From: a virus
Taxonomy: Duplodnaviria > Heunggongvirae > Uroviricota > Caudoviricetes
Length of the DNA: 16,405 nucleotides
Strand: one strand, 5' to 3'
Virus record (IMG/VR): IMGVR_UViG_2563366929_000009
This document shows, piece after piece, positions 1,422 through 3,893 of the stretch (its first letter is position 1; each line of letters opens with the position of its first letter). Both the position numbers and the translations under genes were made by a program. The notes beneath the pieces were generated by a model. The model made no database searches and was not told the origin of the DNA. It saw only the letters and a list, made by a program, of their open reading frames with translations.

Positions 1422-3893
1422 TTAAAAATCAGCCTGATTTGGGATCAGTTTTTGCCAGATAGCTGAAACGTATTTTGCCTGGTAACGGGCGTCATCAAGT
1501 GCATTATGGCGCTCACCTTCGAATGGAATAGCCGTTCTGGCATCGAAGTCTATGGCTTTCCCCAGCTCAACGATTGTGCGTACATCGCGATCGTTGTAGT
1601 AACGCCACGGGCAGGGGATCCCCTGCCGTTCGTATGAACGGCGCAAAATCGTGTTGTCGAAGTTGGCTCCATTTCCCCAAACCTGAACAAAAAATTCACC
1701 GGAGTTTTCGTCGATAAATTCCCGCAATTGTAACAGTGCATCATCTAACGGGATTTCATCGGTCATAATGGCAGATTGCGCTTCGCGTGATTGCTTAAGC
1801 CACCATTTAATGGTGTCCCGATCAATGACTCCGCCAGCAGTTTCCAGATCGATAGTCTTACTAAATTCCGGTCCCATATCTCCGGTTTGCGGATCGAAAA
1901 ATATTGCACCTATTGAGATGATCGGGGCATCAGGATTTTTTCCCATGGTTTCAAGGTCGATCATTAGATGGTCACACGTCCTGCTGGTGGATGTGATTTC
2001 GTGATGACCGTTCACCTTAATTGGGTGATCTGCCGTCTCGCCAGTTTCATTATCGCTATTGTGATGCTGATTGCCGCCAGTGTTCTCCTTGTGTGGATGT
2101 TCAGCGCCTTCCATTTCCTCCGGATCATCTTCCTGAACTTCAACCTGATACTCTTCATCGAATGTTTCTTGGTATGTTGCGTCGCCCATCACCGCGCCAC
2201 AATCAGGACAGTTGCCGCCGCCGGTCTGACCGCAGGCGGTGCAGGCTTTTTCCACTTCCTGGTGCGCCACTGGTTCAGGCTGTTTCGTTTCTGGCTCGTT
2301 TTGTAACGCATTTGGACTGTTTTGTTCCGCTTTTTGGTAGTTCCGTTCCGATTCATGCTGGTTCTGGCTCACAGAATCGCGGGTCTGGATCCCCTTAATC
2401 CATTTCGGATCATTCGGGTCACTAATCCCTTCAACAAATTCACCACGTGATGCAGCAAGCAACTTATCGGCGTCAGGCTGGCTGATATTGGCTGCCTGCA
2501 TAATTTTGTTTACTTCGTCAGCGGTAACTTTTATCGGCTCTGGTTGTTCTGAATCTTCAGCGGTATCTACATTTTGCGGTAAGCCCGTGTATGTGCCATT
2601 TTTTCGGGCAAAATATTCTTCTTTTGTGATTTCAGTGGCGCCAGCAGCCAGTGCCTTATCCAGACCAGAAAGTTTGTTTGCGCGACCGTATTTTTCTCCG
2701 TCCTTATCTGCGAAGAGGAAATAGAACGGCCCCTCACGCTCTACAGATGGTTCAGCTTCCGGCGCGGTTTCATTTTTTGGGATATCAGATACCTCAGTTT
2801 CCACTGCATCAGTTTGTGTTTCTGATGACTGGAGAACATCAACAGTGCCCAGGTCTGTTTCTTCATTCTCAAACACGCCCTTTGTCGTCAGGTATTCGCA
2901 GATATATTTGTTCAGTGCTACGGGATCTTTGTGAATGTCGATCGGACGCTCACGGACAAGGCCAAAAATAGTTTGGCGGTCGTAGCGAAGGGCATCAGGC
3001 TGTTTGCGCATTGATGCCGAGATACGCTTCCAGTCTTCGCGGTCGTTGTCGATAACTTCTTTTTTTGCCCAGCGATGGATGCTGCCGTCAATGTTTCCGG
3101 CATCCACATCACCAGGCCAGAGAGCGTAGGCCAGTTCGTCATCCAGTGTTTTCCATGTCTGCTTGTATTCGCGATGAATGGCAGCAATGACCGGGCTGAT
3201 TTTTCCTGTTGAATTTTCAGTGTACTGTTGATTGGCTCTGGCGCGGGCGAGATCAACAACAGACGTGTATTTTCCGGTTTCCTTGCGTTCACCTTCGCGA
3301 CGTTTTTTCCAGATGCGCATCTCTGCCTGAATTTCGGGCCATTTAGCACCAGGAATACATTTATGCTTAACCCACCCAATGGCGTGCAACTTAAGCTCCG
3401 GATACATGGCGTTAACTTCTGGCATTTTCATCAACGCTTCAACGATATGTCCGTCGAATGTTGCCATGTCTTCCTGCAACAATTCCTGTGCGCTAATAAC
3501 CATATCAACGGTGATGTTTTCACATGTGTCGAACTTAACCATGACAGCGTTCTGTACTTCAGGGGCCAGCTTGTCAAAAGTGACGTTCATCGGATCGGAT
3601 TCAGTCTCGACCGGAACAAAGGAAGCAGACGCCTCATCCCAGCGGTTTTCCTGCATATATTCAGCATCCCAGGAATCGAGGGCAGGGCGGGGTATACCGG
3701 GTTTATCCTCGCAAACAAGAAATTTATAAGCGCAGTCCTGAGCAGCCGGATAATGTTCCAGGAATTGCCAGTGAAATTTTGCGCGGGCGCGACGTTCATC
3801 ACCGGCTTCAATGGCAGTGGCTACAGCGACGGCACCTTCTTCCTTTATTGCCTGTTCGTCCGGAATGGCGGCGCAAATAAAGACTTTACTCAT
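1422..3893 (-). CDS. Phage exonuclease, large multidomain protein with C-terminal DnaQ-like (DEDDh) 3'-5' exonuclease domain
   Basis: 823-aa ORF with GAGG Shine-Dalgarno 8 nt upstream of ATG. C-terminal ~180 aa carry DEDDh motifs: Exo I MIDLETMG, Exo II [8 protein letters not shown], Exo III [10 protein letters not shown]. Central C-x2-C-x7-C-x2-C zinc-ribbon-like motif ([16 protein letters not shown]) and an acidic/His-rich low-complexity linker. Position matches the exo slot of the lambdoid recombination module. Confidence 0.8.
   Translation of the reverse strand: [823 protein letters not shown]

What the first reader, a model, noticed from the sequence alone, without database searches (positions are those of the whole stretch)
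1422..3893. Recombination-module exonuclease carries a DnaQ-like 3'-5' domain plus zinc ribbon and His-rich linker
The 823-aa protein in the exo position has clear DEDDh motifs in its last ~180 residues, not the 5'-3' alkaline-exonuclease fold expected from lambda Exo. Upstream are a CxxC-x7-CxxC zinc ribbon, an acidic/His-rich low-complexity stretch, and about 500 N-terminal residues without motifs I recognise. Its promoter region is now occupied by IS1, so expression may be lost.
Basis: partly seen in the sequence, partly recalled or inferred. Interest (0 to 1): 0.35.

Follow-up and report, generated by a model that had tools for sequence, protein, structure and literature searches.

The report
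Prophage YdfE exonuclease, RecE-like mosaic
This is the intact form of the E. coli prophage protein YdfE: a large scaffold shared with the RecE recombination nuclease, ending in a DexA-type 3'-5' exonuclease with no annealing partner; it is very common and already annotated but untested, and in this copy an IS1 deletion has removed its operon and promoter.

Summary
The minus-strand ORF 1422-3893 encodes 823 aa, identical to RefSeq WP_000048435.1 ("exonuclease").

- **Nuclease domain.** Residues 642-813 match Pfam PF16473 (Rv2179c-like/T4 DexA 3'-5' exonucleases) at E 1.6e-67. All five DEDDh residues are conserved.
- **Zinc ribbon and linker.** The CxxC-x7-CxxC ribbon (C551/554/562/565) and the acidic/His-rich linker are real. 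They lie in a ~450-bp block about 90% identical to K-12 recE.
- **N-terminus.** The first 256 aa equal the IS2-truncated K-12 pseudogene ydfE. Newer Pfam calls these domains YdfE_N and YdfE_C. They fold confidently but match no known structure.
- **IS1.** IS1 (3939-4706) sits 45 bp upstream of the ATG. It replaces 5,506 bp holding ydfD, dicB, dicF, ydfCBA, the repressor, cro and replication genes. The gene is intact but has lost its operon promoter.
- **"Recombination module" is only partly right.** Scaffold relatives with RecE's PD-(D/E)XK nuclease are followed by recT. All six DEDDh-type backgrounds examined run straight into xis-int with no annealase.

The gene occurs in 65% of complete E. 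coli genomes and is catalogued but uncharacterised. Novelty is low and interest modest.

The parts
1422..3893 (-). Complete 823-aa ORF, the intact YdfE-type prophage exonuclease (WP_000048435.1)
   Evidence: PHROG 2082 matched end to end
3114..3893 (-). aa 1-260: YdfE_N-type alpha/beta plus helical domain. It equals the surviving part of the K-12 Qin pseudogene ydfE (98% identity over 256 aa).
   Evidence: AF2 pLDDT >90 for aa 1-205; no PDB or BFVD fold match
2859..3161 (-). aa 245-345: all-helical domain, weakly similar to RecE aa 278-340
2589..2732 (-). aa 388-435: small, confidently predicted beta-hairpin/helix mini-domain flanked by acidic disordered segments
   Evidence: pLDDT 91-95
2013..2480 (-). 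aa 472-627: block shared with Rac RecE aa 452-592. About 85-90% aa identity; about 90% DNA identity over about 450 bp, with sharp borders on both sides.
2199..2243 (-). aa 551-565: CxxC-x7-CxxC zinc ribbon (C551, C554, C562, C565)
   Evidence: the same motif is in RecE
1974..2198 (-). aa 566-640: acidic then His-rich linker, predicted disordered
1455..1970 (-). aa 642-813: DEDDh 3'-5' exonuclease domain (Pfam PF16473, Rv2179c-like/T4 DexA family); catalytic residues D646, E648, D746, H796, D801
3894..3938 (-). Retained 45-bp leader with the ribosome-binding site (GAGG 8 nt before the ATG). The rest of the 92-bp ydfD-exo intergenic region is gone.
3939..4706 (+). IS1A, 768 bp, with insA/insB reading away from the exonuclease gene. 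It replaces 5,506 bp of the intact prophage and has no target-site duplication.
1109..1357 (-). Excisionase gene, immediately downstream of the exonuclease gene; no annealase gene lies between them
1..1131 (-). Integrase gene at the prophage left end, next to ompW in the chromosome

Best explanation
The ORF is the intact form of YdfE, the last large gene of the early-left (dicBF) operon of Qin-type lambdoid prophages.

Shown:
- It is a mosaic. The parts, in order, are a YdfE_N/YdfE_C scaffold of unknown fold; a conserved segment with a zinc ribbon and a disordered acidic/His linker shared almost identically with Rac RecE; and a C-terminal DexA/Rv2179c-family DEDDh domain with a complete two-metal active site.
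- The DEDDh domain occupies the place where RecE carries its 5'-3' PD-(D/E)XK nuclease.
- Scaffolds with the PD-(D/E)XK nuclease are followed by recT. DEDDh versions are followed directly by xis-int.
- In this window an IS1-mediated adjacent deletion removed ydfD, dicB, dicF, ydfC, ydfB, ydfA, the repressor, cro and the replication genes.

Inferred:
- The protein is a Mg2+-dependent 3'-5' exonuclease, most likely acting on DNA ends.
- It works without a dedicated annealase. It would therefore be an end-trimming or DNA-degrading enzyme of phage early DNA metabolism, as T4 DexA is, and not the resection half of a Red/RecET-type recombinase.
- The shared N-terminal scaffold provides targeting or partner binding that does not depend on nuclease polarity.
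- The coding sequence and RBS are intact here, but the gene is cut off from its operon promoter and is probably silent or only weakly expressed.
For: Domain identity:
- PF16473 at E 1.6e-67 over aa 642-813.
- PDB sequence hit to 8kel/8ken 'Exodeoxyribonuclease', 227 aa; I equate this entry with the T4 DexA of PMC12153337 from the name and length, not from the entry record.
- The five DEDDh residues are invariant across homologues.
- Foldseek top hits are RNase T, Orn and ERI1.

Mosaic with RecE:
- BLASTP 2e-61, with aa 472-627 near-identical to RecE 452-592, stopping at the nuclease boundary.
- The DNA block has sharp borders.
- NCBIfam RecE equivalog hits only aa 246-623.
- RecE is PF06630 + PF12684. 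P0128 is PF06630 + PF16473. P0144 and P0131 are scaffold + PF12684.

YdfE identity: 98% over 256 aa; dicBF operon context in intact relatives.

Partner correlation:
- DEDDh type with no annealase: and 0 of 80 IMG/VR loci.
- PD-(D/E)XK type with RecT.

DNA rather than RNA as substrate:
- DexA and the E. coli homologue EcD act on DNA (PMC12153337).
- A 56%-identical standalone homologue sits between SSB and Abc2 in the Erf module of phage epsilon34.

IS1 deletion. No promoter-like site on the gene's strand upstream. DicF is absent from the window but present in L002.
Against: - No biochemical data exist for this protein.
- The Pfam family is named for an exoribonuclease (Rv2179c) and RefSeq often calls relatives '3'-5' exoribonuclease', so RNA cannot be excluded.
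- The DEDDh domain was modelled with low confidence (pLDDT 40-80).
- The partner correlation rests on six DEDDh and three PD-(D/E)XK backgrounds. An annealase elsewhere in the genome, or a host one, could serve.
- A third scaffold class appears to carry a Rad52-like annealase domain with a Gam-like neighbour. That keeps a genuine recombination role for the locus, and hence for the DEDDh form, plausible.
- Silence of the gene is inferred from sequence only. Weak fortuitous promoters or IS1 read-out were not measured.
Confidence: 0.6

Rival explanations
1. It is a prophage-encoded defence or superinfection-exclusion nuclease. The DEDDh domain would selectively degrade incoming foreign DNA, for example hypermodified T-even DNA, as reported for the standalone E. 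coli DexA homologue EcD ('HREX'). The scaffold would supply targeting or regulation.
For: - The domain belongs to the same family as DexA and EcD.
- EcD cleaved 5hmC DNA and protected against T4 (PMC12153337).
- The gene is retained intact in 65% of complete E. coli genomes, in up to 9 places per genome, including defective prophages such as this one.
- It has no annealase partner.
Against: - EcD is a different, standalone protein: it starts MIDTET and has a different C-terminus.
- The position matching DexA W152, which the paper reports as needed for 5hmC recognition, is Tyr766 here, while the other close homologues keep Trp.
- PADLOC gives only a generic Cas-associated DEDDh hit at E 1.7e-5.
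- In intact prophages the gene lies in the repressed early-left operon, so it would not be made in a lysogen.
- In this window its promoter is deleted.
Confidence: 0.15
2. It is a true recombination exonuclease. It would work with an annealase or RecA pathway supplied in trans (host RecA/RecFOR, or an annealase from a co-resident prophage), trimming 3' flaps or ends during single-strand annealing or break repair.
For: - It occupies the recE position and shares the RecE central block.
- The same scaffold is fused to the RecE nuclease with RecT.
- The same scaffold is also fused to a probable Rad52-like annealase domain next to a Gam-like gene.
- The standalone homologue in epsilon34 lies inside an Erf-SSB-exo-Abc2 module.
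Against: - No annealase gene in any of six DEDDh-type prophage backgrounds, or in 80 near-identical IMG/VR loci.
- 3'-5' polarity destroys rather than creates the 3' tails used by RecT/Red-beta/RecA-type recombination (established knowledge of the SynExo two-component recombinases).
- When the DEDDh domain replaces the PD-(D/E)XK domain, recT disappears with it (Rac-like L009 against K-12 Rac).
Confidence: 0.17
3. It is an exoribonuclease acting on RNA, for example processing or turning over the dicBF operon transcript and DicF, or host RNAs, as suggested by the Pfam and RefSeq naming.
For: - PF16473 is named after the exoribonuclease Rv2179c.
- RefSeq names relatives '3'-5' exoribonuclease'.
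- The gene lies in the same operon as the processed sRNA DicF.
- Structural neighbours include RNase T and oligoribonuclease.
Against: - The only solved relative found by sequence is the DNA exonuclease DexA.
- The domain substitutes for a DNA nuclease on a RecE-type scaffold, and its standalone homologues sit among DNA-metabolism genes.
- RNase T itself also acts on DNA; several of the matched PDB entries are DNA complexes.
Confidence: 0.08

Closest known systems
YdfE of E. coli K-12 cryptic prophage Qin (pseudogene b1577; Pfam YdfE_N PF27430 / YdfE_C PF27432)
   Same: The first 256 aa are 98% identical. The operon position is the same, after ydfA-ydfB-ydfC-dicF-dicB-ydfD.
   Different: The K-12 copy is truncated by IS2 after about 256 codons. 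It lacks the RecE-like block, the zinc ribbon, the linker and the DEDDh domain. The window copy is full length.
RecE (exonuclease VIII) of prophage Rac
   Same: - Same locus position, upstream of xis-int.
- aa 472-627, including the zinc ribbon and acidic/His linker, are about 85-90% identical to RecE 452-592.
- aa 262-350 are weakly similar to RecE 278-340.
- The RecE N-terminal region is likewise of unknown function (PMC11611040).
   Different: - RecE has an Exonuc_VIII (PF06630) N-terminus and a PD-(D/E)XK (PF12684) 5'-3' nuclease, and is followed by recT.
- This protein has a YdfE_N N-terminus and a DEDDh 3'-5' nuclease, and no recT.
- The RecE equivalog model scores 278 bits against a cutoff of 1269.
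T4 DexA (exonuclease A; PDB 8kel/8ken) and its E. coli homologue EcD
   Same: Same Pfam family. The sequence hit has E 1.5e-6 over aa 643-776. All catalytic residues are shared with a DexA orthologue.
   Different: DexA and EcD are standalone proteins of about 190-230 aa. Identity is only about 27-30%. The loops DexA uses to form tetramers are absent. DexA W152 corresponds to Tyr766 here. This domain is tethered to a 640-aa scaffold.
Standalone Rv2179c-like exonucleases of temperate phages (e.g. Salmonella phage epsilon34 gp34, Escherichia phage PhiR47_1)
   Same: They are 56-60% identical to aa 637-823 and lie in the early-left region between the recombination/ea genes and xis-int.
   Different: They have no scaffold, zinc ribbon or linker. 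The epsilon34 copy sits with Erf, SSB and Abc2, which are absent here.
Lambda Exo / Red-beta and other two-component (SynExo) phage recombinases
   Same: Equivalent genomic position in a lambdoid early-left operon.
   Different: Different nuclease fold and opposite polarity. No annealase and no Gam.

Membership tests
DEDDh (DnaQ-like) 3'-5' exonucleases, Pfam PF16473 Rv2179c-like/DexA family | Profile match above the curated threshold | tested here: met
   227.1 bits against a cutoff of 27, E 1.6e-67, covering 176 of 177 profile positions
DEDDh (DnaQ-like) 3'-5' exonucleases, Pfam PF16473 Rv2179c-like/DexA family | Exo I D-x-E, Exo II D, Exo III H-x4-D catalytic residues | tested here: met
   D646, E648, D746, H796 and D801 are present and invariant in alignment A4
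DEDDh (DnaQ-like) 3'-5' exonucleases, Pfam PF16473 Rv2179c-like/DexA family | RNase H-like DEDD fold | tested here: inconclusive
   Foldseek top hits are RNase T, Orn and ERI1 (E 5e-5, prob 1.0), but the domain was modelled at pLDDT 40-80 and TM scores are low
DEDDh (DnaQ-like) 3'-5' exonucleases, Pfam PF16473 Rv2179c-like/DexA family | Metal-dependent 3'-5' exonuclease activity | not testable with these tools
   Needs biochemistry
RecE / exodeoxyribonuclease VIII (NCBIfam NF007259 equivalog) | Full-length equivalog score | tested here: not met
   278 bits against a cutoff of 1269; only aa 246-623 align
RecE / exodeoxyribonuclease VIII (NCBIfam NF007259 equivalog) | C-terminal PD-(D/E)XK nuclease domain (PF12684) | tested here: not met
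   Absent from this protein; present in K-12 RecE and P0144
RecE / exodeoxyribonuclease VIII (NCBIfam NF007259 equivalog) | Exonuc_VIII N-terminal domain (PF06630) | tested here: not met
   No hit. The N-terminus is YdfE_N type, taken from precomputed Pfam on a 93%-identical cluster representative and the family names given
RecE / exodeoxyribonuclease VIII (NCBIfam NF007259 equivalog) | Adjacent recT | tested here: not met
   xis follows directly
YdfE (Pfam YdfE_N PF27430 + YdfE_C PF27432) | Homology to K-12 YdfE and the family profiles | tested here: met
   98% identity to K-12 ydfE over 256 aa. PF27430 and PF27432 are precomputed for the 93%-identical representative P0001. These models are not in the local Pfam copy, so the window protein itself was not scanned against them
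Two-component phage recombinase (5'-3' exonuclease plus single-strand annealing protein) | 5'-3' PD-(D/E)XK exonuclease plus a neighbouring RecT/Red-beta/Erf/Rad52-like gene | tested here: not met
   DEDDh fold. No annealase in the window or in relatives
HREX / EcD-type anti-phage exonuclease (PMC12153337) | Residues equivalent to DexA W152 and D169 for 5hmC recognition, and loss of the tetramerisation Asp | tested here: inconclusive
   The W152 equivalent is Tyr766. The D169 equivalent could not be aligned reliably. The EcD sequence could not be retrieved

The most novel reading that the evidence does not exclude
The YdfE/RecE N-terminal scaffold may be a conserved platform on which enterobacterial lambdoid prophages exchange alternative DNA-end effectors. 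Three are seen here: a 5'-3' PD-(D/E)XK nuclease with RecT, a probable Rad52-like annealase domain with a Gam-like partner, and a partner-less 3'-5' DEDDh nuclease. On this reading the DEDDh form, present in about two thirds of E. coli genomes and often in several copies, is not a recombinase component. It would be an uncharacterised exclusion, defence or counter-defence nuclease that the scaffold targets to DNA ends.
Probability: 0.2. Interest if true: 0.6.

Novelty: already known. Interest (0 to 1): 0.27.

Why it matters
The architecture is already in RefSeq, Pfam and PHROGs, so the finding as stated adds little. Three points remain worth noting:

1. This is one of the commonest prophage genes in E. 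coli, found in 3,537 of 5,426 complete genomes. In the open-access paper library searched here (PubMed Central and bioRxiv), no functional study of it turned up.
2. [quoted passage not shown] RecT travels with the PD-(D/E)XK nuclease and not with the scaffold. This bears on what full-length RecE does in linear-linear recombineering.
3. A recent report gives a standalone E. coli DexA homologue an anti-T4 role. That makes a simple experiment worthwhile: test this protein's substrate and its phage-exclusion activity.

For this particular window, the IS1 deletion marks the prophage as defective. It has lost immunity, the dicBF operon and the replication genes, and the exonuclease gene is stranded.

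Tried and rejected
- **Fold of the N-terminus.** AF2 gave a confident model of aa 1-345 (pLDDT 85). Foldseek found nothing significant in the PDB (best E 0.94) or BFVD (best E 0.12). The weak Endonuclease V hits to the full-length model disappeared when the N-terminus was searched alone, so they came from the DEDDh domain.
- **Retrieving EcD (HAK9828821.1) for direct comparison.** Only primers are given in the paper's supplement. Scanning genome contigs with the 17-mer returned 99 stretches, almost all chance matches. Two (L123, L106) encode unrelated standalone DEDDh homologues and none is from E. coli.
- **Fetching diverse loci.** The search for related loci with alignment A3 failed because no stretch was conserved enough. 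The single-protein scan returned only 98-100% identical loci. These add numbers but are not independent evidence.
- **Literature.** A search with 'RecE' as a word start was swamped by 'receptor'. Searches for ydfE, Rv2179c-like, PF16473 and RecE+DEDDh found no functional study of this protein.
- **PADLOC.** Only a generic Cas-associated DEDDh model at E 1.7e-5, so it is not filed as a known defence system.
- **Is the third-class C-terminus a diverged RecE nuclease?** Rejected: hhalign probability 0.1. PDB phmmer and profile searches were empty. Sub-threshold Rad52_Rad22 hits in 7 of 12 members and a Rad52-like signature point to an annealase instead.
- **An outward promoter from IS1 toward the gene.** The consensus scan found none on the minus strand. 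It found only the inward insA promoter.
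Full report
**1. What is there**

The window is part of a lambdoid prophage integrated next to ompW in E. coli. Many complete genomes carry it at 100% identity. The minus-strand ORF 1422-3893 encodes 823 aa. It is identical to RefSeq WP_000048435.1, annotated 'exonuclease', in both IS1-bearing and intact versions of the prophage. The ORF is real and not a chance reading frame. PHROG 2082 matches it end to end. The 90% cluster that contains it has over 23,000 member sequences. The gene is present at 80% length or more in 3,537 of 5,426 complete E. coli genomes, in up to nine places per genome.

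**2. The C-terminal domain**

- Pfam PF16473 (Rv2179c-like 3'-5' exoribonuclease domain) matches aa 642-813 at E 1.6e-67.
- The only solved structure found by sequence is 8kel/8ken, 'Exodeoxyribonuclease', 227 aa. I equate it with the T4 DexA of PMC12153337 from the name and length; the entry-to-paper link was not checked.
- The DEDDh residues are D646 and E648 (MIDLET), D746 (GANFD), and H796 and D801 (HNALDD).
- All five are invariant when the domain is aligned with epsilon34 gp34, PhiR47_1, RcDora and a DexA orthologue.
- Foldseek on the full-length AF2 model puts RNase T, oligoribonuclease and ERI1 on top. This part of the model has low confidence.

**3. The zinc ribbon and linker come with a RecE block**

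- BLASTP against K-12 RecE gives 2e-61. Residues 472-627 are about 85-90% identical to RecE 452-592.
- That stretch holds the motif [31 protein letters not shown], the C551-x2-C554-x7-C562-x2-C565 ribbon and the acidic/His-rich linker.
- At the DNA level this is a block of about 450 bp at about 90% identity. Its borders are abrupt, and the 3' border falls exactly where the nuclease domains begin.
- The four Cys are conserved in every representative cluster that carries the block, including divergent ones.
- AF2 predicts aa 439-640 as largely disordered.
- The NCBIfam RecE equivalog matches only aa 246-623 and scores far below its cutoff.

**4. The N-terminus is YdfE**

- The first 256 aa are 98% identical to the K-12 Qin pseudogene ydfE, which IS2 truncates.
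- Newer Pfam releases name the two N-terminal families YdfE_N (PF27430) and YdfE_C (PF27432). The local Pfam copy lacks them.
- AF2 with 37-43 homologues gives confident domains at aa 1-205, 245-345 and 388-435.
- Foldseek finds no significant match for aa 1-345 in the PDB or BFVD.
- Almost no column is invariant across homologues. This looks more like a scaffold or interaction module than an enzyme.
- A search of aa 1-640 against 1.84 billion representatives found only 248 relatives, so the family is narrow.

**5. Modular shuffling and the partner rule**

Domain mapping of the representatives, with Pfam checks, shows combinations of two N-terminal types with several C-terminal modules.

| Protein or class | N-terminus | C-terminus | Downstream gene(s) |
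|---|---|---|---|
| K-12 RecE | Exonuc_VIII | PD-(D/E)XK (PF12684) | recT |
| P0144 | Exonuc_VIII (PF06630, partial) | PD-(D/E)XK | small ORF, then recT |
| P0131 | YdfE_N/YdfE_C | PD-(D/E)XK | recT |
| Window / MS8345 | YdfE_N/YdfE_C | DEDDh | xis-int |
| Phage HannyBb | same (98.7% identical) | DEDDh | xis-int |
| Phage 813R8 | differs (match covers aa 245-823 only) | DEDDh | xis-int |
| P0128, in a Rac-like prophage | Exonuc_VIII (99% to RecE) | DEDDh (98%) | xis-int |
| P0141 | Exonuc_VIII | DEDDh | int |
| P0243 | Exonuc_VIII | DEDDh | xis-int |
| Third class (P0135, P0185 and others) | YdfE_N/YdfE_C | ~290-aa conserved domain | Sipho_Gp157 ('Mu Gam-like') |

- Every PD-(D/E)XK form examined is followed by recT.
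- Every DEDDh form examined runs straight into xis/int.
- None of 80 near-identical IMG/VR loci has RecT, Erf or Gp157.
- The Rac-like case is telling. With RecE's own N-terminus, exchanging the nuclease for DEDDh goes with loss of recT.
- The third-class C-terminal domain is not PD-(D/E)XK (hhalign probability 0.1). It carries a Rad52-like signature (KKSLTDAIKKALSxLGFxADVWLGLYD). It gives sub-threshold Rad52_Rad22 hits in 7 of 12 members.

So the locus is broadly a DNA-end/recombination locus. The DEDDh form, however, is a solo enzyme and not half of an exonuclease-plus-annealase pair.

**6. Likely mechanism**

*Shown:* an intact two-metal DEDDh site, tethered by a disordered linker and zinc ribbon to a conserved scaffold.

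*Inferred:* a Mg2+-dependent 3'-5' exonuclease acting on DNA. Three things point to DNA:
- The characterised relatives closest in context, DexA and EcD, act on DNA (PMC12153337).
- A 56%-identical standalone homologue lies between SSB and Abc2 in the Erf module of epsilon34.
- The domain replaces a DNA nuclease on the RecE-type scaffold.

The Pfam family is named for an RNase, so RNA activity cannot be excluded.

The biological role is open. Candidates are end trimming or DNA degradation in early phage DNA metabolism (favoured), defence or exclusion as for EcD, or recombination with a partner supplied in trans. The residue matching DexA W152, which the paper reports as needed for 5hmC recognition, is Tyr766 here. 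The link to EcD is therefore a lead and not a test.

**7. IS1 and expression**

- IS1A occupies 3939-4706: IRL at 3939-3961, IRR at 4684-4706, 768 bp.
- It starts 45 bp upstream of the ATG and leaves the RBS in place.
- Compared with the intact prophage in strain MS8345, IS1 replaces 5,506 bp (L002 4939-10444). There is no target-site duplication, which indicates an IS1-mediated adjacent deletion.
- Lost genes: ydfD, dicB, DicF (Rfam hit in L002 only), ydfC, ydfB, ydfA, the LexA-family repressor, cro, the ydaT-like gene, the O-like replication gene, a DUF977 gene, and the 5' half of a 320-aa gene.
- The early-left operon promoter that normally drives the exonuclease, xis and int genes is therefore gone.
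- insA reads away from the gene, and no promoter-like site lies on its strand.
- Only 13 of 5,426 complete genomes share this junction.
- Loss of expression is an inference. The coding sequence shows no decay.

**8. Novelty**

RefSeq already names relatives '3'-5' exonuclease' or '3'-5' exoribonuclease domain-containing protein'. Pfam has all three domain families and PHROGs has the full-length family. The finding as stated is already known at the annotation level. In the open-access paper library searched here (PubMed Central and bioRxiv), no functional study of YdfE turned up. A 2023 review still describes the RecE N-terminal domain as being of unknown function (PMC11611040). The modest residual interest lies in the partner rule and in the experimentally easy question of what this very common nuclease does.

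Noticed in passing
window 3939-4706, compared with L002 4939-10444: IS1A replaces 5,506 bp of the intact prophage and has no target-site duplication. The whole dicBF operon, the repressor/cro immunity region and the replication genes are gone, so this prophage is defective. The same junction occurs in only 13 of 5,426 complete E. coli genomes.
   Followed up: yes
L017/L018 4001-6927; L019 4001-6714 (proteins P0135, P0185 and 10 other clusters): A third class of YdfE_N/YdfE_C scaffold proteins ends in a conserved ~290-aa domain. It is not PD-(D/E)XK and not DEDDh. It carries a Rad52-like signature (KKSLTDAIKKALSxLGFxADVWLGLYD) and gives sub-threshold Rad52_Rad22 hits in 7 of 12 members. The overlapping downstream gene is Sipho_Gp157, which PHROG calls 'Mu Gam-like end protection'. 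PHROG labels the fusion 'exonuclease', which may be a mis-annotation of a scaffold-annealase fusion.
   Followed up: partly
L009 6001-8418 (P0128): A Rac-like prophage (racR-like, sieB, kilR, ydaE context) encodes a protein with the RecE N-terminus (99% to K-12) but the DEDDh C-terminus (98% to the window). It lacks recT, ralR and rcbA, and xis-int follow directly. This is a natural 'RecE with the opposite-polarity nuclease'.
   Followed up: partly
window 4707-5159 and 5175-6176: Next to IS1 lies the 3' remnant of a 320-aa gene (intact in L002 9935-10897; weak HEPN/RES N-terminal domain hit, E 2e-4). It is followed by an intact 333-aa gene with a weak GNAT hit (E 9e-4). This uncharacterised two-gene cassette sits between the replication genes and hokD. 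It might be an accessory or defence-type module, but PADLOC found nothing convincing.
   Followed up: partly
window 6625-6799 and 6737-6949: A hok/sok type I toxin-antitoxin locus: sok RNA (Rfam RF01794, 113 bits) overlapping the hokD region annotated in related genomes.
   Followed up: no
window 11320-11566, 11645-11835 and 12113-12322: Three phage tRNA genes (Ile, Arg, Arg) lie downstream of the DNA methyltransferase gene (10221-11270). Two copies of the sRNA family STnc100 follow (136 and 161 bits).
   Followed up: no
window 7397-8443, 8456-8830 and 8827-9648: A nin-region-like set: a DUF968 protein with a weak HNHc nuclease hit, the RusA Holliday-junction resolvase, and a Q-type antiterminator. 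RusA is the only recognisable recombination function left in this prophage.
   Followed up: no
L008 3778-5858 (Salmonella phage epsilon34): A standalone 182-aa DEDDh exonuclease (gp34, 56% identical to the window domain) lies inside an Erf-SSB-exo-Abc2 module. It occupies the place where, from my own recollection of the P22 gene order (not checked here), P22 has Abc1.
   Followed up: partly
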